From the IMG/VR virus record IMGVR_UViG_3300044452_000161: a stretch of DNA of 64,000 nucleotides. One strand, given 5' to 3'. This document shows, piece after piece, positions 1,143 to 23,471 of this stretch. The position numbers and the translations under genes are program-made. This DNA comes from a virus. Numbering within the stretch: position 1 is the first letter of the stretch; each line of letters opens with the position of its first letter. The notes beneath the pieces were generated by a model that ran no database searches, was not told where the DNA came from, and was given only the letters and a program-made list of their open reading frames with translations.

Positions 1143-1370
1143 TTATCGAACAATTTTTGGTTCTTCTGGACATTCAATAACGAGACGCGCGCCGCACTTC
1201 AGAATTGGTTTATGGGGGCTGTATGTAAGACGAGACCCGGCTGGAAGTTCCACCTCATGACAGTACGTTCCTTTTCCGCTTTTGCTGCTTGCAATGCGAA
1301 CAGGCGCTGCGTCTTCGCCACGTCGAACGTTCTGAGAAATCGTCTGCTTGTTGATGCTGACATAGTACAT
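1143..1370 (-). CDS. conserved-type phage hypothetical protein
   Basis: 75 aa with HEV..P..YSP.KP..CGAR motif recalled from small phage proteins. Confidence 0.75.
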   Translation of the reverse strand: MYYVSINKQTISQNVRRGEDAAPVRIASSKSGKGTYCHEVELPAGSRLTYSPHKPILKCGARLVIECPEEPKIVR

Positions 1371-2607: not shown

Positions 2608-3258
2608 TCACGCCGCCAGTGGTGAGGACTCCGCAAAGGACCCCCACTGATCTGCCATTGCTTTCGCGATCCCGGGGAAGAACCGGCTGCGTTCTTTCCA
2701 GCGATCCGCACCGGGGCTGGCCTTGTGGACGCTGTCGCGCGCGGTTGTGCCATCAAGTGTTCCAGTGGGAACAAGATTGGGGAGGCCACGCAGCCACAAA
2801 CATGTCCGCTTCTTTTCGTTGTCTGGTCCTTCAGGATCGTCTCCGAACTGCCACGGCTGGATCGACTGAGAGAATGGCTGGTAGTTACGGATGCGCACCT
2901 TCGCGTGTTTGTGCATCACTGGGTTCTCTACCGCGACCATCGGGATGGATGTGTTCCAGCAATCAGAGAAAAGGGCAGCCCCTGCTTCCAGTTCATCCCA
3001 CATCTCGTCGCGAGTACGACCGGGAGGCGGTTGATGTAACCACCGCACGCCACTGTTACAGAGACGGGTGCATGGTGGATGCATCACGCAGAGTAGGTCC
3101 CATGTCTCCCAATTCATAACGTCTCGGACGTCGCCAACAATATGACGATTGGAAGGACGCTCCGCTGGAAGGATGTCACAACTCCACGCGTCATGTCCTG
3201 CTTCGAGGAACGCGTCCCGCACGACGCCTGATTGTTCACAGCCGATGAGTACTCGCAT
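2608..3258 (-). CDS. DNA cytosine methyltransferase-like protein (phage type)
   Basis: MRVLIGCEQSG (SAM-binding-like), HPPCT (catalytic PC), VENPV motifs. Confidence 0.75.
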   Translation of the reverse strand: MRVLIGCEQSGVVRDAFLEAGHDAWSCDILPAERPSNRHIVGDVRDVMNWETWDLLCVMHPPCTRLCNSGVRWLHQPPPGRTRDEMWDELEAGAALFSDCWNTSIPMVAVENPVMHKHAKVRIRNYQPFSQSIQPWQFGDDPEGPDNEKKRTCLWLRGLPNLVPTGTLDGTTARDSVHKASPGADRWKERSRFFPGIAKAMADQWGSFAESSPLAA

Positions 3259-4818: not shown

Positions 4819-5397
4819 GTGAACTTCCCCCAACGTCCGCAATGGAACGATCCTCAAGTAAAGGATGAGGCCGCAAAAGCGGTGTTCGACGACTTTCGGT
4901 CGTGGGCATTGTCTCGTGGTGTTATTGAGGATGGTGAAGACGACGCACAAGTCCTCGCGGCGCTCTCATTCGCTCTGTACTCCGGCGCGGATGGTTATGG
5001 TGCCGCTCGTGAATTGGAAAGAGCATTTCAATGGCCTTCGGATGGGAAGCTCGTTGATATCCTCTCCATCGCTTATCGCCGAATGGTGTTTATCGTCCCG
5101 CACTTCGTTCGTGAATGGGTCATGGAAAACAATGTTCGGTTTCCGGCGGACAAAGGGGTTCTTATCTGTTTCCGTCGCCACGGCTCACTAGAGGCGAAAG
5201 GAGTGGTGATCGAGATCATCTCTCGCGAGGCTCGAGCCATCGTTAAGGTTGGGAAGAAGGACAAGCCTTCACATATCTCGGTGAACGCGGAGGACGTCGT
5301 TAACCATCTTCAAATTGTTTCTCTGTCCGGTAAGCCTAAACCACCAACTGGTGGATCGCCCGCTAACGCGGGCCATTCGAAAGTTGAAAAGCCATGA
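4819..5397 (+). CDS. hypothetical protein
   Basis: 192 aa; stop overlaps start of resolvase (ATGA). Confidence 0.75.
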   Translation: MNFPQRPQWNDPQVKDEAAKAVFDDFRSWALSRGVIEDGEDDAQVLAALSFALYSGADGYGAARELERAFQWPSDGKLVDILSIAYRRMVFIVPHFVREWVMENNVRFPADKGVLICFRRHGSLEAKGVVIEIISREARAIVKVGKKDKPSHISVNAEDVVNHLQIVSLSGKPKPPTGGSPANAGHSKVEKP

Positions 5398-6754: not shown

Positions 6755-7284
6755 AGAACCCAAAACATGAGGAGTACGCACTTCTGCTGGCCCAAGGGCT
6801 GACGCAGAAGAAAGCTTACGTGCAAGCAGGGTATTCAGACAATCCGCAAGCTGCGTCCAAGCTAGCCCAAGCGCCTAAATTCAAGAAGCGTGTTAAAGAG
6901 CTAAAGCAAGAAATAGCTCAGCAAATTCAAACAGCTATGGCGGAGCCATCTGTTGAAAATTGGGAGAGCCTGTCTGAGATGGGCCTGACCATGGAATGGG
7001 TCGCCCGACAGTATCAAGAAGTGTACAAGCAATCTCTCGACGCTGGAGCCTTTGCTCCTGCCAATACTGCTTTGCAGAATATCCAAAAGCTCATTGAAAT
7101 GGAGAACGACGCTAAGGGGGCTGAGGACACCTCGAAAGACGCATTGATCCCTGTTTCCGCTGTGACTGAGATGCTGACAGATATGCGTGGCGTGTTTGAG
7201 GCAAAGGCTAACGCAGAAGCGTCTATCGAAGTCGGTGAGCAACTTCTCGAAGACATGAAGGACATTACCCCCGATGCTGGATAA
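6742..7284 (+). CDS. terS: terminase small subunit
   Basis: LENPKHEEYALLLAQGLTQKKAYVQAGYS HTH motif; directly upstream of terL. Confidence 0.75.
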   Translation: MARLENPKHEEYALLLAQGLTQKKAYVQAGYSDNPQAASKLAQAPKFKKRVKELKQEIAQQIQTAMAEPSVENWESLSEMGLTMEWVARQYQEVYKQSLDAGAFAPANTALQNIQKLIEMENDAKGAEDTSKDALIPVSAVTEMLTDMRGVFEAKANAEASIEVGEQLLEDMKDITPDAG

Positions 7285-15691: not shown

Positions 15692-16492
15692 CTAAGCAAA
15701 AACAATCTAAGTGTTTAGGGCCTTCCCTGCGTGACAGCAGCGGAAGGCTTTGCTGTGTCTTGTATCAAGTAAAGCGTAGAAGAAATGTGTTGACAAACCT
15801 GGAATCAAAGAGGGACCCAACGGGGGGTATGGGGGTGGGGTGATTCGCGCGCGTAGGTGCTACACGAATTTATGTGGCGTACTTGATGGAATCCGGGGGA
15901 CCCTGGAGAAACTGGCACCCCCCTTTGTTCATGAAATATGCCGTTAAAAAAAAAATTTCGGAGTTATCAAAATGGTGTTGCTGAAATGTCACAATTTATG
16001 ACAAGGCGAGATGATCAGCGGCAATGTTGACGTTTTGACCCGTTGTTCAGTCAGAAATATTGACATTTTAGGGGGGTTGGACTAAGTCAGGTTCACCGAA
16101 ACACCTTTTCCCCCCTCATTTTCACGATTTTTAGGGCCTCGAGGTAACCAATCCGGCGAATTTTGTCCGCTGTAAAAACCTCTAGAAGGCCATTTGACAG
16201 AAATACTGTCATTTTTGCGTTGACGGGTAAGTAAGAATCACTTAAACACATCTTCACGGACGCCAATCGCGGTGTTCGGTGATAGGTACGCCTGGCGGTG
16301 ACAGCAAATCTGGCAGGTGGTGAGTAATAGGATTGTTTCACTAACCATGAGGCAGTCTCGCCAGTTTGGCGAACGTTTTTTGACATAGATGTGTGGTGCA
16401 TCGTTTATATTCTGAAAACACAACTGGAACGAGTTGTGTACACTTGTAGGACGACACGTTTCGACGCCGAGAGCCGATAATCGAGTGAATTT

Positions 16493-16569
16493 GGGGCGTT
16501 GGTCTAGCGGTCGAGGATACTGCACTTTCAATGCGGTGGTCACGGGTTCGAATCCCGTACGCCCTACCA
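16493..16569 (+). tRNA. tRNA-Glu(TTC)
   Basis: cloverleaf, loop CT-TTC-AA, encoded CCA. Confidence 0.92.
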
Positions 16570-16574
16570 TTATT

Positions 16575-16677
16575 CAGATACTTTGCAGGTGCACTCCTCG
16601 ATGTTTTGTTCAGTTTCCATCGAGTTTGAGCGGGCGTTTCGGTCATTCTCCGCTCGAGTGCATCTTTGAAGTGTCTG
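16575..16677 (+). ncRNA. three-way-junction structured RNA candidate
   Basis: long terminal stem enclosing CTCGATG/CATCGAG and GAGCGG/CCGCTC helices; strand assumed from flanking tRNAs. Confidence 0.5.
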
Positions 16678-16684
16678 TTAATTT

Positions 16685-16760
16685 GGTGTCATAGCTCAGT
16701 TGGTAGAGCACCCGGCTCATATCTGGGAGCGCGGTGGTTCGAACCCACCTGACACCACCA
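16685..16760 (+). tRNA. tRNA-Met(CAT), elongator-like
   Basis: cloverleaf, loop CT-CAT-AT, CCA. Confidence 0.88.
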
Positions 16761-16862
16761 AACACAAGTTCCTGGTACAGAGGTCCTCAAAACTCGGTTT
16801 TCGAAGACCGACAACCCTCTGTTAAAACGCTCGGGTCGAAGGCGGGTAGTGCCCATAACGAA

Positions 16863-17135
16863 TACGACGTAGCTCAATCGAAAGCCAAACGTCAGTATGA
16901 AAGGCCTAGAAAACGGCGAGATAAGGCTCCCAGTAGGCGTGATCGTAACAAATGCAAGGTGTAAGAAACGTTGAGCGGGTTAAACGCCCGACAGACGATC
17001 CCGAACGAACAGGGAGATAAGGCGCTCGGAGTACGAAAGTTCGAGTACTACTGATTGTAGCGAGTCGCGGGTAGAGCACCAGCATTCACATTGCATCAGG
17101 GCTGGAGATGCGGGGTTCGAGGCCCGCCGTCGTTG
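16863..17135 (+). ncRNA. tRNA-like RNA with about 190-nt D-loop insertion and 17-nt anticodon loop
   Basis: ACGACG/CGTCGT acceptor, GCTC/GAGC D stem, CCAGC/GCTGG stem, TTCGA T loop. Confidence 0.6.
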
Positions 17136-17193
17136 CCGATTAGGTTTGCAGTCTGCGCAGACGATTATAGCCGGGTTAACACGGCGAAAGATA

Positions 17194-17260
17194 TGACGTT
17201 CTGGCTTCGTCGGCAGAGGAAGCTGGAGTGGAATCTAAGGTTCGAGTCCTTAGGGCGTCA
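17194..17260 (+). ncRNA. tRNA-like element lacking one arm
   Basis: TGACGTT/GGCGTCA acceptor, CTAAGG-TTCGAGT-CCTTAG T arm, single internal hairpin. Confidence 0.5.
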
Positions 17261-17273
17261 GGCAAACCTATAT

Positions 17274-17349
17274 CAGGGTGTAGCTCAGTTGGTAGAGTGC
17301 CGCACTTGGAATGCGGAGGTCGTCGGATCGTGACCGACCACCCTGACCA
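17274..17349 (+). tRNA. tRNA-Pro(TGG)
   Basis: cloverleaf, loop CT-TGG-AA, CCA. Confidence 0.92.
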
Positions 17350-17706
17350 AACTCAAACGATGTCGTCCGAAACCGTTCCTAGAACCGTTCGGAGGGCTAT
17401 CGACTGCGCGGTGGCATCCCTGCAGGTAGTACCTGTGAACGTCGCAGTATAAAATGGGTCGCCACACTAACAGAAAACTCGCTTACTCCGGAGTATTACC
17501 TCCCGAGGCGCATAGGTAAGACGCAGTATAGCGGGGGTTTGGTTGGAGTTTGTAGCTGGGGAGCAGACTAGCCTCAGCATCCAAGTTTCGGAGAGACTGC
17601 GCCGAGAGGGGCCGCGCCATAGTTTACTCCAAGTAGTTCACATTCAGCGCCGAAGTATGTCCCCCTGTGTGATTGAAAAGGCTTCTGATCAAACCATTCA
17701 CCCTTT

Positions 17707-17782
17707 TGCGGGATGGAGAAGTAGTCATCTCGCTTGGTTCATGTCCAAGAGATCGTCGGTGCAAATCCGGCTCCCGCAACCA
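17707..17782 (+). tRNA. tRNA-Met(CAT), initiator-like body
   Basis: body resembles bacterial fMet tRNA but T1-A72 is paired and the anticodon stem lacks three G-C pairs. Confidence 0.8.
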
Positions 17783-17930
17783 TTCTGAAATAGCCTGCCC
17801 TCTCCTTCACACCCTCCCGGCAGGTGAACCTCCGGTGCCCAAACCGCAGTCCTCGCGGGCGTCCGAAAGGGCAGACGTTGGTGTCACGTTTTACCTGGCA
17901 CCAAGAGTAGGCTCGGAGGAAAAAATCTAT

Positions 17931-18033
17931 ACTGGCGTAGCTCAGAGGTAGAGCGCTGAGACGTAAACACTCTCGGAGACGCAGAGACACGGGCAGCACA
18001 CCGTGTTGGGTTCAAATCCCGCCGCCAGTTCCA
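17931..18033 (+). ncRNA. aberrant tRNA-like RNA (9-nt anticodon loop, extra arm)
   Basis: perfect acceptor ACTGGCG/CGCCAGT plus TCCA, canonical D arm, TTCAAAT T loop. Confidence 0.65.
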
Positions 18034-18051
18034 ACCCCGAAAATGTAACCC

Positions 18052-18603
18052 TTGGAGGATTATTTTATGTTAGCTGGTATCTTTGCCTTGGGTTTCTGGC
18101 CCTTGGCGTTCTTTGTTCTGTGTATTGCAGGCCTTTTCTGGGGCACAATCGCAGAGTCAGCCGTTGGACTAGCCATCGTCATTGCGATTGCTGTAGCGGC
18201 AGCAACTTTTTCTGGATACGACCCCCTTGGGTATCTTTTCCAGTCCCCGTCTCTATTCTTTTCGGGAGTGGTTCTTTACCTCCTGCTGGGCCTTGGATGG
18301 GCTGGTTGGAAATGGCGACGCTACTTGAAAAAGCCTGAGATTTTCAAACAGATTTCTCAAGCCAAACAGGACTTTTTCGACCAGTCTCCGTCACTGAGTA
18401 TTGATGACTTCATGGACAGTGAACTTTACCCAGACGTAGCTTGGCTTTCGAACAACAAAGATCGGATCATTAGCTGGTGGATGATGTGGCCACTGTCTGC
18501 ATTCTGGTATGTCCTCGGCGACATGCTCGTCGAAGCCTTCAACTGGCTGTACGGCAAGACAGCAGGCTTGTTCCGAAGCATCAGCCGATCAACGATTTCA
18601 TAG
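18052..18603 (+). CDS. membrane protein
   Basis: 183 aa with multiple hydrophobic segments; GGAGG RBS suggests ATG at 18067. Confidence 0.8.
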   Translation: MEDYFMLAGIFALGFWPLAFFVLCIAGLFWGTIAESAVGLAIVIAIAVAAATFSGYDPLGYLFQSPSLFFSGVVLYLLLGLGWAGWKWRRYLKKPEIFKQISQAKQDFFDQSPSLSIDDFMDSELYPDVAWLSNNKDRIISWWMMWPLSAFWYVLGDMLVEAFNWLYGKTAGLFRSISRSTIS

Positions 18604-18749
18604 ATTTTTTGCCGGAGCACGGCGCATCAACTGACGCGCATTCCTTCTCGGATGTAAGTCGCGTCAACTTTTCAGATATACGTCAAAGCGTATATTCATC
18701 AGTTATACGCTTCAGCGTATGGAGCTTTATGATCCGTAACACATAATCG

Positions 18750-19253
18750 ATGTTTATGTGTTATCGACCATAAAACTATGGAATTCCCTTCGGGGAATGG
18801 GCTGTATGAGGTCCTTAGAATATGACCGGGTGACCGGAGAAAAGGGAAAGGCGCTCCCCGCGTCCCCGCCTGAAAAGGTTCAATCATACAAACTCCGATC
18901 CACTTCGCCGGTAGCAGTGCCCCGTAGCGTTGTGTGTCCAGCCCCAACTGGGCAATAGTCGGTAAGTTTGGGAACCCGGTCCGAAAGGATAAGTGAAGCC
19001 TCAAAAGGGCGGATCGAAGTAGATTGGCGTCTACACCCTGTTCATGCCAGCCAAACGAACGATGAGGATTAAGGAGTAGATCGAACACAGTCCAACTGTT
19101 CGCGCAGAAGGGCGAGAGATCATCATGAACGAGGAAGGGCCGACAAGGCCCCCATCCGTGAAATGACGTCGACTAGGCCGCAAGCCGAAAGACATAGATA
19201 CGTGTTGTATTCTTGGTCTAACAAGACTGGGAGCAACCGAGCCAGCACGTGTC
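18750..19253 (+). ncRNA. large structured ncRNA candidate (ROOL/GOLLD-class hypothesis)
   Basis: about 500 nt without credible plus-strand ORF, many hairpins, inside tRNA cluster. Confidence 0.5.
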
Positions 19254-19265
19254 AGGGGTTAAACT

Positions 19266-19340
19266 ACGTTAGTAGCTCATTTGGATAGAGCAACAGTCTG
19301 ATAAAACTGTGGGTAGTGGGTTCAATTCCCATCTTACGTC
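19266..19340 (+). tRNA. tRNA-Ile(GAT)-like with 8-nt anticodon loop (atypical or pseudo)
   Basis: ACAGT-CTGATAAA-ACTGT arm; acceptor with one T-T mismatch; no encoded CCA. Confidence 0.6.
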
Positions 19341-19344
19341 AAAA

Positions 19345-19811
19345 AGCAAAAGACTGGCTCGGTGTCGCGTGAAAGGTGATTAATGCCCGGCTCTTCGGAG
19401 AACTGGGTGGGTTGGAGGCCGCAAGCCAAAGACCTTTGTTCAAGATCAATTCGTAGATCGTTAGCGCGGTCGAACTGCTCGCAAGGCAGACGTGGAGAGA
19501 CAGGACGATTATCGCGACATGACAGGACTACAGCCTTGGTCCTCAAAAACGGCATCACTGAGTGGTACATTGGCACCCTTGACGGGGCCAACGTGGATAT
19601 CTCCTAACCAAGCCTGTAGCAGGGTCCTTGGATACGGGTAGGTAAAGCTATCTCATGGCGACGGTGTAATCTCAGCCGCTGCTACCCATAATCAGCTTTT
19701 TCTGGGGTGACCGGACGCAGGCTTTAGGCTCGTAACCGGGTCTGCGGTCCTATTCTCTCACAGGGCGAACCGGGCGGAGTGAGAGCCGCCCCCACTTATC
19801 CGGCCCCACCA
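19345..19811 (+). ncRNA. second large structured ncRNA candidate ending in CCCCACCA
   Basis: TGTCGCG/CGCGACA enclosing multiple hairpins; GGGG-(TGA)-CCGG pairs with terminal CCGGCCCC. Confidence 0.45.
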
Positions 19812-19849
19812 AAAGAAGCTGTTCAATGAAAGAGTTAAGGAGTGGAGAT

Positions 19850-20089
19850 ATGAAGGTACGACTTACTGTAACGGTCGATATAGAAGACCCAAATTACTAC
19901 CCTTTGGACGAAAATGGATGGGCCTGCGGCGATCCTATCGACAAATTGGATCGAGACGAGGTTGGACAGTATGTATCCGAAGCTATCCTGACTTGGGGTG
20001 GATCAGGACCTCCCCATGGTGTCTTCAATCCTTCGAACATCAACTCCGTCCGTGTACAAGGTACCAACTTCGACACAACGTATCAGTGA
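19850..20089 (+). CDS. hypothetical protein
   Basis: GGAG RBS before MKVRL. Confidence 0.7.
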   Translation: MKVRLTVTVDIEDPNYYPLDENGWACGDPIDKLDRDEVGQYVSEAILTWGGSGPPHGVFNPSNINSVRVQGTNFDTTYQ

Positions 20090-20100
20090 GGAAATCATCT

Positions 20101-20334
20101 ATGATCGACATCAAGCGCGCCGTCACAGGCGGCAGAAAAGTGGTTTTCTCTCATTATGCTGATGGAGACCTTTGGTATAAAACTGAGTTTGGTGAACAGT
20201 TTCCAGTACCGGTCAGCGATGCGGGAACAGCAACTTTTCACGCCAAAGACAAAGCACTCTTGTTCATGCGCTATATGCGTAAGTGGAACGAAAACACTAC
20301 GGCACAAACGATGGAACGTTTGGCCTGTGTCTGA
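20101..20334 (+). CDS. conserved-type phage hypothetical protein
   Basis: MIDIK start, GAGG RBS; LWYKTEFGEQFPVPV..G.ATF...DKA..FMRYMRK motif. Confidence 0.75.
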   Translation: MIDIKRAVTGGRKVVFSHYADGDLWYKTEFGEQFPVPVSDAGTATFHAKDKALLFMRYMRKWNENTTAQTMERLACV

Positions 20335-20344
20335 TCCCTTCGGG

Positions 20345-20416
20345 GATAAAACGCACGTATATCTACGGAGCTTGGATGATTTCTGGACCCGGGGGCGGTA
20401 CCCGGCGGCTCCACCA
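20345..20416 (+). ncRNA. ssrA: tmRNA acceptor piece (permuted two-piece gene); 5' end approximate
   Basis: T arm with GGCGGTA loop then CGGCTCC-A-CCA; pairs with GGGGCCG at 20511 giving G3-U70. Confidence 0.85.
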
Positions 20417-20510
20417 CGTGCACACTGTTCTCAAAACTGCCTTGGAAAGACACGCGAGACGATGCATGCCTCTCGTTTGTTCGCGGAAAAATCTACAGTG
20501 TGTACTTGAT

Positions 20511-20720
20511 GGGGCCGATATAGGATCGACAGGGTTTGAAGGGAAAGTGGCGTGTCGGTGAGAAACCACCGTTATCGGTTCAAAAACCATAGTTGCAAAT
20601 GTAAACGCAGCACCATCGGAGATGGCACTTGCAGCCTAACGCTTGTCGTTACGCTGCCTGAAAGCTTCCCTCCATTGGGCTTCCCGGCGTGCCTAGAAAC
20701 AGAAACGTCGGACCAGTTTC
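20511..20720 (+). ncRNA. ssrA: tmRNA coding piece; tag (A)ANVNAAPSEMALAA* at 20595-20639; 3' end approximate
   Basis: GGGGCCGATATAGGATCGAC 5' end; ATAGTTGCA resume context; LAA terminus. Confidence 0.88.
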
Positions 20721-21052
20721 TCTAGAGGGTTGAGTTCCCCACACAATATGAGTGGTGCATCATCTTCGGTATCGCCGAAACCGCGTTTGACGCAGGTAAC
20801 CGCATACCCAGTTGAACGACAAGAATATTGGAAACCCAACTCGCCGCCGGGCGTGTGACTTAGCGGGTTACAAATAGGTATCACACACCTTTTCGAACGA
20901 GAAGCGGTGGTGGCCCCGTTGGTAGGGCCATCCTTGACTTGCCGCCTCGTCTCTCCGGCTCCGTGAGAGAACTTAGTGAACGGGCCGCGCACGTAGTATA
21001 ACTCCGAAACCGTCCGCAGCGAAATGTGGAGCCGGAGCCGTTACCGGCAGAT

Positions 21053-21262
21053 TTACTTCTTACCCTTACGGCCTTTGGAACTTGGCAGTTTGGAAAGAGG
21101 ACGCTTCTTGAGGCCGATGGCTACACGAAGTTCGTTCACATAGTTCTCGGCTTTTTCGAGTTCTTGCATCGCAAGAGCTTTCTTCTTGTCGGCGATTGCC
21201 TGGGTCAGTTCGTCCAGTTCGCCGATGTCGAGAGAGGAAATGTCGATTGATTTGTTAGCCAT
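21053..21262 (-). CDS. truncated H-NS-like protein (oligomerisation domain plus basic tail)
   Basis: IDISSLDIGELDELTQAIADKKK...ELEKAE pattern of H-NS/HvrA N-termini; no DNA-binding C domain. Confidence 0.6.
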   Translation of the reverse strand: MANKSIDISSLDIGELDELTQAIADKKKALAMQELEKAENYVNELRVAIGLKKRPLSKLPSSKGRKGKK

Positions 21263-21316
21263 GAGTTTCATCCAGTTTCTTGAGACTGGATTGCGATAGC
21301 AGGAAAGGTCTCCGAC

Positions 21317-22324
21317 ATGAATACCCAAATCTACCGGACAACCGCTGGTTCTTTCTTGTTTGGTGCATCAACGCCTTCGTCAGATCGCGATTACAAGTCG
21401 GTTCATCTGCCAGATGCGCGTTCAATCCTGTTGGGAACAGCGAACAAAGTGAGTGATAAGAGCACTGGAGGTAAGGATCGGAAGAACTCAGCCGATGATG
21501 TTGATGAGACGTCTTTTCCGCTTCAAAAGTACCTCAAAAATCTTGCGAGTATGGAAACCAATGCCATCGAAATTTTGTTTTCATATCGTCTAGAAGATTT
21601 TCCCGATGATGGAACGTTCGGATGGTATATTTGGAACGAAATCTATCAAAATCGGATGAGAATTCTCAACAGCAACAAGCAGAGCTTTCTTGGATACGCC
21701 AAGGCGCAGGCCATGAGGTACAGCGTTCGAGGAGAACGTCTGAAAGCGCTGAAAGCAATAATTGAATTCCTGAAGTCCCAGGATGCTTCAGCCCGGATCA
21801 GAGACCTCAATCTCAGCCCTGTGTTGTGGGAATTTGAAGGAATTCGAGTGCATGATCGGCAAATTCGCGATCAAAACGGCAGTTTTTACGCGATGCCGCA
21901 CATTTGTGTTCACGGGAGGCAAACACCGATCACTTCTACTGTGTCAGAAGCGCTGAAAGTCTACGAAAAGCCTTTGAAGAACGCGAGCCATCGAGCCGAA
22001 GCGGCTGTAGAGGATGGAGCGGACTGGAAAGGCATGTATCATGCTCAACGGATCGTACACGAAGGCATAGAGTTGTTTTCGACAGGTAACCTTGTCTTTC
22101 CTTGCCGACACGCTCCGTATTACCTTGATATTCGAAACGGTGTTATTTCTCTTGATGAGGTTTTGAACCGTTTTGACGAGTCTTTACTTGAACTCGAAGG
22201 AATAGACCCAGCGAAACACTTTCGAAGCCACGCCGATCACAAGTGGATCGATGAGTTTGTTTATGCTGCGCATGAACAGCAGGTCGTTTCTGCATACGAA
22301 AGTAACATTATTCAAGAACAATAG
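21317..22324 (+). CDS. Pol-beta superfamily nucleotidyltransferase (RlaP-like)
   Basis: GSFLFGASTPSSDRDYK catalytic motif; helical C-terminus WKGMYHAQRI. Confidence 0.8.
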   Translation: MNTQIYRTTAGSFLFGASTPSSDRDYKSVHLPDARSILLGTANKVSDKSTGGKDRKNSADDVDETSFPLQKYLKNLASMETNAIEILFSYRLEDFPDDGTFGWYIWNEIYQNRMRILNSNKQSFLGYAKAQAMRYSVRGERLKALKAIIEFLKSQDASARIRDLNLSPVLWEFEGIRVHDRQIRDQNGSFYAMPHICVHGRQTPITSTVSEALKVYEKPLKNASHRAEAAVEDGADWKGMYHAQRIVHEGIELFSTGNLVFPCRHAPYYLDIRNGVISLDEVLNRFDESLLELEGIDPAKHFRSHADHKWIDEFVYAAHEQQVVSAYESNIIQEQ

Positions 22325-22504
22325 GCCTTTGGCACGCGGTTAGAAGGATGTGCCATCCGACGGGGAAGTACCAACGCCGACTGAGTTGCATCTACAGTTC
22401 GCGGTCCGTGAGACCCTAGGAGTGAGCCGGGCATTAGGAGGGGCCATCCACGCGGTCCCGCACCCGGTAGGCGTGGGTACGGCGGTGCTGCAACACCGTC
22501 CTAT

Positions 22505-22593
22505 GGGTAGGTTCAGCCGCTGGTCGCGGCATGCGGGTTGTAACCCCGTTCCGTGTAATGCGGGCGCAGTTCGATTCTAGCACCTACCCACCA
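22505..22593 (+). tRNA. tRNA-Tyr(GTA), non-canonical 8/4-like fold
   Basis: loop TT-GTA-AC, long variable arm, 8-bp acceptor, 4-bp bulged T stem, A-CCA. Confidence 0.75.
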
Positions 22594-22601
22594 GTTTTCA
22601 C

Positions 22602-22677
22602 GTGCAGGTAGCTCAGTTGGTAGAGCGCGGGATTGAAGTTTCTGGCGTCGGGGGTTCGAGTCCCTCTCTGCACACCA
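22602..22677 (+). tRNA. tRNA-Phe(GAA)
   Basis: cloverleaf, CCA. Confidence 0.9.
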
Positions 22678-22832
22678 ATTCGCAAAGGGCATCAGGAGAG
22701 CGTTTGCCGCAAGCACATAGCTCTTCTTTCGGCGGCGGTGTCAGCGGCGACACCGTAACTCACGAGGCCTGTGAAGGCCGCTCCGAACCCCTGGGCTAAG
22801 GAAGCGCCGCTAGTGAGATTTAACAAGGAGGT

Positions 22833-23471
22833 GTGATGTCCAAACGTTCTGACTTTATTCGTATCGAGAAGGACAAGTACATGACCCCGGCTGAGGGTGC
22901 CACACCTCTTATTCGCTTTTTGCCAACCGGCATCTTCCACTACGTTGAGCCGTGTGCTGCGCAAGGTGGGCTTGTTGCACATTTTCTCCATCAATCTGGT
23001 GGGCGTTCTCGCTGCACCCACATGTCAGATATTGAACCAGAGATCGCTTCTATCAAGCGAATGGATGCCAGAAACCTTGGTCCTGAGCACCTCTTTGATG
23101 CGGACTTGATAATTACGAACCCGCCTTGGGATCGATCTAAGAAGTCCGGGTATCTGCTGCACGAATTGATCGAGGTATTTTCTAACCTGCGGCCTACCTG
23201 GTTGTTGTTTGACAGTGACTGGGTCCAGACAGTCCAAGCGGGTCCTTACATGTCGAGATTGGTGGCAACCGTGTCTGTTGGACGCCTGAAGTGGATGCCT
23301 GGAACCAAACATACCGGAAAAGACAATTGCCAGTGGCACCTGTTCGCGAAGAACGCACGAGAGATCACTGATGCACCAGAGCACTTCGGTCGAAATGTGG
23401 GTCCATATCCTCACTTTGTTAGTCGATACATGCGATTGGCATACCGTGAGAGGGTGACAGAAGCAGCATAA
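22833..23471 (+). CDS. DNA N6-adenine methyltransferase-like protein
   Basis: DKYMTP, EPCAAQG (motif I-like), IITNPPW (motif IV). Confidence 0.8.
   Translation: MMSKRSDFIRIEKDKYMTPAEGATPLIRFLPTGIFHYVEPCAAQGGLVAHFLHQSGGRSRCTHMSDIEPEIASIKRMDARNLGPEHLFDADLIITNPPWDRSKKSGYLLHELIEVFSNLRPTWLLFDSDWVQTVQAGPYMSRLVATVSVGRLKWMPGTKHTGKDNCQWHLFAKNAREITDAPEHFGRNVGPYPHFVSRYMRLAYRERVTEAA

What the first reader, a model, noticed from the sequence alone, without database searches (positions are those of the whole stretch)
18750..19253. About 500-nt ornate ncRNA candidate in an alphaproteobacterial phage tRNA cluster
Seen: opens with a GTTTATG/CATAAAC hairpin, contains GTCC-GAAA-GGAT and many other stems, and ends near GTATTCTTGGTC...GAGCAAC...AGCACGT. 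Established: ROOL and GOLLD are giant structured RNAs found beside phage tRNAs. The ends resemble my recollection of ROOL, which is unverified. ROOL is described mainly from Firmicutes/rumen samples, so a hit here would extend the family and a miss would suggest a new class.
Basis: partly seen in the sequence, partly recalled or inferred. Interest (0 to 1): 0.75.

Follow-up and report, generated by a model that had tools for sequence, protein, structure and literature searches.

The report
GOLLD RNA front half, roseophage
The flagged 500 bases are the front half of a roughly 900-base GOLLD RNA, a known giant phage RNA that assembles into RNA-only cages, so this is one more member of a described family and neither ROOL nor a new class.

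Summary
The structured RNA is real, but it is GOLLD and not ROOL. Rfam's GOLLD model covers only the conserved 3' domain. It matches window 19197-19678 over its full length (126.5 bits, E 1e-34), below the curated cut-off of 150, so a default scan misses it. The flagged stretch, about 18783-19196, is the 5' domain, which Rfam does not model.

The 5' domain is homologous to the sequence upstream of above-threshold GOLLD hits in four roseophages and in ten viral contigs. It shows strong covariation: 97 pairs, 90% canonical against 35-41% in slid controls. It has no conserved ORF. Its opening P1-P2 motif recurs in canonical 300-bit GOLLDs. A tRNA-like module with an 8-nt anticodon loop (19266-19340) sits in the linker, as in other GOLLDs. 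Contigs from RNA libraries cover 18794-19802.

Kretsch et al. 2025 already list GOLLD in these roseophages and in other alphaproteobacterial phages, so this is a new member of a known kind.

This scan has reported GOLLD RNAs on other DNA before. No look-alike of this 5' domain was noted outside this genome.

The parts
18669..18696 (+). Weak sigma-70-like promoter (TTTTCA-16-TATATT) upstream of the leader; candidate start of the transcript
   Evidence: Consensus scan only: 9 of 12 matches, and the number of such sites is not above shuffles. Relatives carry much better promoters directly before the 5' domain. Inferred, not shown.
18723..18777 (+). Long imperfect leader hairpin (about 21 bp, loop TCGATGT).
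   Evidence: MFE fold of 18700-18783. No homologue of 18604-18783 in any related locus. Specific to this window and outside the conserved RNA.
18783..18798 (+). P0 hairpin ATTCCC-TTCG-GGGAAT, first conserved helix in the roseophage subgroup
   Evidence: Read from alignment A2. The stem changes in a compensatory way: ATCCC/GGGAT, ATGCC/GGCAT, ACTCC/GGAGT, TCCCA/TGGGA. It is absent from the L133-L141 subgroup.
18783..19196 (+). GOLLD 5' domain (about 414 nt), the substance of the finding
   Evidence: nhmmer finds the homologous stretch directly upstream of GOLLD 3' domains in 15 loci (E 1e-6 to 4e-43). Profile hits also occur in Mesorhizobium, Erythrobacter and phiCbK phages. 97 alifold pairs are 90% canonical, against 35-41% with the partner slid, and 69 pairs covary against 24-32. 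Helix table. No conserved ORF.
18798..18881 (+). P1 hairpin (18798-18815) followed by a GNRA-capped hairpin (18824-18839) and AAAG. This opening motif is shared with canonical GOLLDs.
   Evidence: Positions 15-80 of the 5' profile match about 340 nt upstream of 293-305-bit GOLLD 3' domains in L187, L193, L153 and L254. The start of env-38 printed in Kretsch Suppl. Table 4 shows the same pattern by eye.
18979..18990 (+). GUCC-GAAA-GGAU hairpin with a GAAA loop that is invariant across homologues
   Evidence: Invariant columns in A2. Pairs 242-245/250-253 are 98% canonical.
19197..19253 (+).
   Evidence: Rfam RF02032 model positions 1-62. 21 pairs, 96-97% canonical, 11 covarying.
19266..19340 (+). 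tRNA-like module in the GOLLD linker, with the 8-nt anticodon loop CTGATAAA
   Evidence: ARAGORN and Rfam tRNA at 50.3 bits. It lies in the insert-tolerant linker of the GOLLD alignment. Homologous modules occupy the same place in 14 other loci.
19341..19678 (+). Remainder of the conserved GOLLD 3' domain, including the long-range pseudoknot CGGTGTCGCG...CGCGACATGA and the terminal GGTGTAATCTCAGCC
   Evidence: Rfam RF02032 hit 19197-19678, model positions 1-416 of 416, 126.5 bits, E 1.2e-34. nhmmer to relatives reaches E down to 1e-89.
19679..19811 (+). Structured trailing segment after the GOLLD 3' end. Whether it belongs to the same RNA is not known.
   Evidence: Conserved directly after GOLLD in L110 (E 8e-14) and L009 (E 4e-7) but not in the other relatives. 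An adapter-flanked RNA-library contig spans 19670-19802.

Best explanation
Window 18783-19196 is the 5' domain of a GOLLD RNA whose whole gene spans about 18783-19678 on the + strand. That is roughly 900 nt, including a 75-nt tRNA-like module in the linker.

Shown here:
- it is non-coding;
- its 3' half is homologous to the GOLLD family model;
- its 5' half is a conserved, covariation-supported fold always found directly upstream of a GOLLD 3' domain;
- it occurs in RNA libraries.

Inferred from the cryo-EM structure of GOLLD env-38 (Kretsch et al. 2025):
- The RNA assembles with copies of itself into a closed RNA-only cage.
- The 5' domains (this finding) form the two caps and the 3' domains form the rings.
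- The linker, here carrying the tRNA-like module, points into the interior.

The biological role of the cage is not established for any GOLLD. The most likely role is in phage manipulation of tRNA use or translation during lytic growth, given its constant place in phage tRNA/tmRNA islands and the tethered tRNA module.
For: - Rfam GOLLD (RF02032) matches 19197-19678 over the full model 1-416 at E 1.2e-34. No other large-RNA family matches at E up to 10.
- Syntenic relatives score above the gathering cut-off: MD18 169.6 bits, DSS3_MAL1 160.5, V10 151.4, DSS3P8 150.7, L009 161.2.
- blastn aligns both halves of the window RNA to these relatives at 67-71% identity.
- The 5' half alone finds 15 loci, in each case directly upstream of the GOLLD 3' domain. 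A profile of it also hits Mesorhizobium (E 2.5e-13), Erythrobacter (E 6.7e-9) and phiCbK (E 2.3e-10, partial) phage GOLLD loci.
- Covariation: 85 pairs with 56 compensatory; 90% against 35-41% canonical cells and 69 against 24-32 covarying pairs compared with slid controls.
- The P1-P2 opening motif is shared with canonical GOLLDs of about 300 bits.
- The 5' part is 414 nt, against 420 nt in env-38. A tRNA in the linker is a known GOLLD feature.
- Every frame has stop codons in every homologue, and there is no Pfam hit.
- Several relatives have a TTGACA/TTTACA-17-TATAAN promoter 10-20 nt before the 5' domain.
- Contigs from four RNA libraries, all 100% identical, cover 18794-19802. Single contigs bridge the 5' domain, the first 3' hairpin and the tRNA module, for example 18862-19331 and 19126-19388.
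Against: - The Rfam score (126.5) is below the curated gathering score (150), so by Rfam's automatic rule this copy is not a family member.
- The single-sequence fold energy is not significant (z = -1.63).
- The covariation controls are lenient, because the structure was derived from the same alignment.
- Beyond P1-P2, no sequence homology was detected between this 5' domain and that of canonical lake-type GOLLDs. env-38 could not be fetched for a formal alignment. Equivalence of this 5' domain to the solved cap domain is therefore inferred.
- The RNA-library data are assembled contigs. They cannot show ends, strand or level, and DNA carry-over is not excluded.
- Cage formation and function were not tested.
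Confidence: 0.92

Rival explanations
1. The 5' stretch is a separate, undescribed large structured RNA gene that merely sits next to GOLLD. On this reading it is a companion RNA and not the GOLLD 5' domain.
For: Rfam's GOLLD model does not cover it. Apart from P1-P2 it shows no detectable sequence similarity to the 5' parts of canonical lake-type GOLLDs. GOLLD 5' regions are described as poorly conserved.
Against: It abuts the first 3' hairpin with no spacer in every locus (A2). The good promoters in relatives lie before it, not between the halves. RNA-library contigs bridge the junction. Its length matches the 420-nt 5' region of env-38. Its opening motif is at the same relative place in canonical GOLLDs.
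Confidence: 0.04
2. It is a ROOL RNA or a ROOL-like relative.
For: Only the shared context: a large ornate RNA beside phage tRNAs.
Against: No ROOL match at E up to 10 with permissive filters on 18550-19900 or at gathering on the whole window. The motifs taken as ROOL-like are the first helix of the GOLLD model.
Confidence: 0.01
3. It is a structured spacer or leader of a polycistronic tRNA transcript that only guides processing. It has no function as a folded RNA of its own, or it is partly translated from the 129-aa minus-strand or 66-aa plus-strand ORF.
For: It lies inside a tRNA island and carries a tRNA-like module that RNase P or RNase Z could cut. ORFs of 66 and 129 aa overlap it.
Against: About 100 base pairs are maintained by compensatory change over sequences down to roughly 50-60% identity, far more than a processing spacer needs. 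The ORFs are not conserved, since every frame has stops in every homologue, and have no Pfam match. An RNA-library contig spans the tRNA module uncut (19126-19388).
Confidence: 0.03

Closest known systems
GOLLD RNA (Rfam RF02032; Weinberg et al. 2009; cryo-EM of env-38, PDB 9MEE, Kretsch et al. 2025, PMC12286853)
   Same: Full-length match of the 3' domain model at E 1e-34. Two-domain layout of about 414 nt plus about 410 nt. A variable linker after the first 3' hairpin that carries a tRNA. Location in a phage tRNA island. The P1-P2 opening motif of the 5' domain.
   Different: The score is below Rfam's gathering cut-off (126.5 against 150). Beyond P1-P2 the 5' domain has no detectable sequence similarity to lake-type GOLLDs and belongs to a subclass found here in alphaproteobacterial phages and related viral contigs. 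Cage formation was not tested for this subclass.
GOLLD loci of roseophages MD18, DSS3_MAL1, DSS3P8 and vB_RpoS-V10 (listed, 3' domain only, in Kretsch et al. Supplementary File 3)
   Same: Both halves are homologous at 67-71% identity. The same gene order is kept: tRNA-Met/Pro cluster, GOLLD, two-piece tmRNA, nucleotidyltransferase.
   Different: The window has a 183-aa ORF and a non-homologous leader inserted before GOLLD, and ORFs inserted before the tmRNA. Its linker tRNA has an 8-nt anticodon loop instead of the Arg(UCU)-like loop. DSS3P8 and V10 have no linker tRNA.
ROOL RNA (Rfam RF03087)
   Same: A large ornate phage RNA near tRNA islands that also forms RNA-only cages.
   Different: No sequence or structure match. 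[quoted passage not shown]

Membership tests
GOLLD (RF02032) | Significant full-length match to the family covariance model (conserved 3' domain with its pseudoknots) | tested here: met
   Window 19197-19678, model positions 1-416 of 416, 126.5 bits, E 1.2e-34. The long-range pseudoknot strands are aligned with few non-canonical pairs.
GOLLD (RF02032) | Score at or above Rfam's curated gathering cut-off (150 bits) | tested here: not met
   126.5 bits, so there is no hit in gathering mode. This is an annotation threshold and not a structural feature. Orthologous loci in four roseophages and L009 score 150.7-169.6.
GOLLD (RF02032) | A large, less conserved 5' domain of about 400 nt directly upstream of the 3' domain on the same strand | tested here: met
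   414 nt (18783-19196) abutting the first 3' hairpin, conserved and covarying in 15 loci. env-38 has residues 1-420.
GOLLD (RF02032) | 5' domain homologous to that of canonical or solved GOLLDs | tested here: inconclusive
   Only the P1-P2 opening (profile positions 15-80) matches canonical 293-305-bit GOLLDs. The rest is not detectably similar. env-38 could not be fetched for alignment.
GOLLD (RF02032) | Variable linker after the first 3' hairpin, sometimes holding a tRNA | tested here: met
   A tRNA-like module at 19266-19340 lies in the linker. The same holds in 14 related loci, including phiCbK and the Mesorhizobium phage. The feature is stated in Kretsch et al..
GOLLD (RF02032) | Phage or prophage context near tRNA islands | tested here: met
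   27 tRNAs plus a tmRNA lie in 16.5-28 kb of the window. The nearest relatives are Roseobacter-group phages.
GOLLD (RF02032) | Homo-oligomeric RNA-only nanocage (14-mer for env-38) | not testable with these tools
   Needs an in vitro transcript and mass photometry or cryo-EM.
ROOL (RF03087) | Match to the family covariance model | tested here: not met
   No match at E up to 10 on 18550-19900 with permissive filters, and none at gathering on the whole window.

The most novel reading that the evidence does not exclude
The GOLLDs of alphaproteobacterial phages form a distinct structural subclass. They have a cap (5') domain of their own that shares only P1-P2 with the solved env-38/lake type. 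They also have a co-inherited, tRNA-shaped linker module that no longer decodes: its anticodon loops are degenerate, with 6-nt and 8-nt loops, G33, and no G1. On this reading the module serves as cargo, tether or enzyme handle inside the cage and not as a tRNA gene. If so, this subclass could give a cage of different geometry and a direct experimental handle on what GOLLD does with tRNA-binding factors.
Probability: 0.35. Interest if true: 0.5.

Novelty: new member of a known kind. Interest (0 to 1): 0.3.

Why it matters
It settles an attractive-looking 'new ornate RNA' as the unmodelled half of a known one.

It also shows a practical blind spot. Rfam models only the GOLLD 3' domain, and this copy falls under the gathering score, so standard annotation would leave about 900 nt of structured RNA unlabelled.

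The 15-sequence alignment of the 5' domain, with about 70 covarying pairs, could seed a model for the alphaproteobacterial-phage type of GOLLD cap domain.

The odd linker tRNA modules offer a modest lead on GOLLD function. The scan's wider question, what GOLLD cages are for, is not advanced by this locus alone.

Tried and rejected
- ROOL, OLE, raiA and RNase P: no Rfam match at E up to 10.
- Single-sequence folding: z = -1.63, not informative.
- Pattern TCGCCGG...CCGTAGCGT in viral contigs gave over 119 mostly chance loci. Only L110 was useful. Of the 8 hits to GGGCYGYATGAGGTCCT, 7 were chance.
- Fetching env-38 or a close relative for a formal alignment of 5' domains failed. There was no exact match in metagenome contigs or viral contigs. 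The 833-nt sequence printed in the paper's supplement was not typed in, because long strings may not be pasted. Only its first ~45 nt were compared by eye.
- Weinberg 2009 and Morgado 2020 are not held in the library, so their statements are cited only through Kretsch et al.
- The count of structure pairs was not used, because it needs a 523-character typed structure. The same controls were scripted instead.
- RNA-library contigs leave most of 16000-18790 and 19800-23000 uncovered.
- The supplementary tables of Kretsch et al. were searched for loop names (L11a, L21a/b) to map cage contacts onto this sequence. Nothing usable was found.
This is not counted as a match.

Full report
**What is there**

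The window carries a phage tRNA island on the + strand at 16.5-28 kb: 27 tRNA genes and a two-piece alphaproteobacterial tmRNA at 20334-20709. At Rfam's gathering thresholds nothing is reported between 18030 and 19266 or between 19340 and 20334. With permissive filters on 18550-19900, the GOLLD model RF02032 matches 19197-19678 over its full length (positions 1-416 of 416) at 126.5 bits and E 1.2e-34. This is below the curated cut-off of 150. No ROOL, OLE, raiA or RNase P match appears at E up to 10.

They form the first hairpin of that model. The RF02032 model corresponds in extent to the conserved 3' region of GOLLD. In the solved env-38 RNA the 5' region is residues 1-420, the 3' region is 421-833, and a disordered linker lies at 497-538. 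The flagged stretch sits where the 5' region should be.

**Check of the observation**

GTTTATG (18752) and GTCCGAAAGGAT (18979) are present. CATAAAC is not; the sequence reads CATAAAAC at 18769. It is a hairpin of about 21 bp spanning 18723-18777. It lies in a leader (18604-18783) with no homologue in any related locus.

The minimum free energy of 18770-19256 is not better than shuffles (z = -1.63). The case for structure therefore rests on comparison with relatives.

**Relatives**

blastn finds both halves at 67-71% identity in Phaeobacter phage MD18, bacteriophage DSS3_MAL1, Roseobacter phage DSS3P8 and Ruegeria phage vB_RpoS-V10. In each of these phages the region is unannotated apart from an internal 'tRNA-Arg'. 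All four score above the GOLLD gathering cut-off, at 150.7-169.6 bits. The phage nucleotidyltransferase at 21317-22324 is 52% identical to those of MD18 and DSS3_MAL1. The window therefore comes from a more distant member of this group of roughly 150-kb Roseobacter phages.

Pattern scans of viral contigs added L009, L110 and L133-L141. The 5' half alone (18770-19196) finds all 15 loci by nhmmer (E 4e-43 to 7e-6), always directly upstream of the GOLLD 3' domain.

A profile of the 5' domain also hits upstream of the GOLLD 3' domain in three more phages:
- Mesorhizobium phage Cp1R7A-A1, E 2.5e-13
- Erythrobacter phage vB_EliS-L02, E 6.7e-9
- Caulobacter phage phiCbK, last third only, E 2.3e-10

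It does not hit Vibrio phage PG07 or mycobacteriophage PegLeg.

In canonical lake-type GOLLDs (293-305 bits), only profile positions 15-80 match, about 340 nt before their 3' domain. This shared opening consists of the P1 hairpin, the sequence TAAGATAA, a GNRA-capped hairpin, and AAAG. The start of env-38 as printed in the paper shows the same pattern by eye.

**Structure**

On the 15-sequence alignment A2, RNAalifold predicts 85 pairs, 56 of which have compensatory double changes. With RIBOSUM scoring, the 5' domain has 97 pairs:
- 90.3% of cells are canonical, against 35-41% when the 3' partner is slid by 1-3 columns.
- 69 pairs covary, against 24-32 in the slid controls.

These controls are lenient, because the structure was derived from the same alignment, but the margin is large. 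The helices in window coordinates are listed.

The roseophage subgroup has an extra P0 hairpin at 18783-18798 with compensatory changes. The GUCC-GAAA-GGAU hairpin (18979-18990) has an invariant loop.

The region is not coding. Every reading frame has stop codons in every homologue, and the window's 129-aa minus-strand ORF is not conserved. The overlapping ORFs have no Pfam match.

**Transcription**

Several relatives carry good sigma-70 promoters 10-20 nt before the 5' domain:
- TTGACA-17-TAAGTG in DSS3P8 and V10
- TTGACA-17-TAGAAC in L009 and L140
- TTTACA-17-TATAAG in L135

No relative has one between the two halves. The window itself has only a weak candidate at 18669-18696.

Twelve runs hold at least half of the sampled words of 18770-19690. 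One is a marine metagenome and the rest are synthetic-community samples. Contigs from four RNA libraries, all 100% identical, cover 18794-19802. Single contigs span the 5' domain, the first 3' hairpin and the tRNA module, for example 18862-19331, 18924-19347 and 19126-19388. These are assembled contigs. They show presence in RNA libraries and continuity across the junction. They do not show ends, strand or level.

**The linker tRNA**

The module at 19266-19340 has a normal cloverleaf (Rfam tRNA, 50.3 bits) but an 8-nt anticodon loop. Fourteen related loci have a tRNA at the same place. Their nominal identities are Arg, Leu, Lys, Gly, Glu, 'SeC' and 'His(ATG)', and one has a 6-nt loop. They align as one family.

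| | Linker tRNA modules | Free-standing tRNAs, same loci |
|---|---|---|
| Canonical 7-nt anticodon loop with U33 | 8 of 15 | 132 of 137 |
| Starts with G1 | 3 of 15 | 95 of 137 |

Related sequences are not independent, so they are descriptive only.

**How it most likely works**

Shown: this is a non-coding RNA of about 900 nt with two domains, and it is conserved. Its 3' domain is a GOLLD 3' domain.

Inferred from Kretsch et al. 2025: GOLLD self-assembles into a closed RNA-only cage. The 5' domains form the caps, the 3' domains form the rings, and the linker faces the interior. Here the linker carries the tRNA-like module. The role of the cage is unknown for every GOLLD. Its location in the tRNA/tmRNA island and the tethered tRNA point to translation or tRNA handling during lytic growth.

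**Comparison and novelty**

The supplementary GOLLD alignment of Kretsch et al. already lists the 3' domains of DSS3P8, V10, DSS3_MAL1 and MD18. It also lists phiCbK-like, Mesorhizobium, Erythrobacter, Vibrio and Mycobacterium phages. GOLLD in alphaproteobacterial phages is therefore in print, and this locus is a new member of a known kind.

Three things may not be in print:
- an explicit description of this 5' domain type;
- its limited similarity (P1-P2 only) to canonical GOLLD 5' domains;
- the degenerate anticodon loops of the linker modules.

Earlier notes of this scan report GOLLD RNAs on other DNA. No look-alike of this 5' domain was noted outside this genome.

Noticed in passing
window 19266-19340; L001 1961-2036; L110 7285-7357; L136 5757-5829; L140 7425-7495; L141 3680-3755; L142 738-811 and others: The tRNAs embedded in GOLLD linkers of this clade align as one homologous family despite different nominal anticodons. 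They often have non-canonical anticodon loops (8-nt, 6-nt, G33, TCA, ATG) and lack G1. 8 of 15 are canonical, against 132 of 137 free-standing tRNAs in the same loci.
   Followed up: partly
window 19679-19811: A structured segment of about 130 nt directly after the GOLLD 3' end is conserved in L110 (E 8e-14) and L009 (E 4e-7) but not in the other relatives. An adapter-flanked RNA-library contig spans 19670-19802. In DSS3P8 and V10 a weak tRNA-like hit (39.5 bits) sits at the corresponding place.
   Followed up: partly
L003 about 1470-1500; L009 about 1175-1215 (-); L140 about 6925-6960; L135 about 1965-2010; L133; L134: Near-consensus sigma-70 promoters (TTGACA or TTTACA, 17-nt spacer, TAnnnN) lie 10-20 nt upstream of the GOLLD 5' domain. 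This suggests that GOLLD is its own transcription unit in these phages.
   Followed up: partly
L136 about 5030-5100; L141 about 3185-3215: rRNA-leader-like boxA motifs (GCTCTTTGAAAA after a strong promoter in L136; a hairpin plus GTTCTTTGATAG in L141) lie upstream of GOLLD. This echoes an earlier scan note on Bacteroidota phages. The window has no clear equivalent.
   Followed up: partly
window 17931-18030: A 100-nt tRNA-like hit (Rfam tRNA, 35.6 bits) that ARAGORN does not call. It lies just before the 183-aa ORF that separates the tRNA cluster from GOLLD.
   Followed up: no
window 18052-18603 and 19826-20089: These ORFs (183 aa and 87 aa) have no Pfam match and flank GOLLD. They are absent from the corresponding places in MAL1, MD18, DSS3P8 and V10, where tRNA-Met, GOLLD and tmRNA are nearly contiguous.
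   Followed up: no
window 19176-19186 and 19417-19427: The hairpin motif GGCCGCAAGCC followed by (G)AAAGAC occurs at the end of the 5' domain and again in the 3' domain. Both copies are conserved in relatives, with compensatory stem changes.
   Followed up: partly
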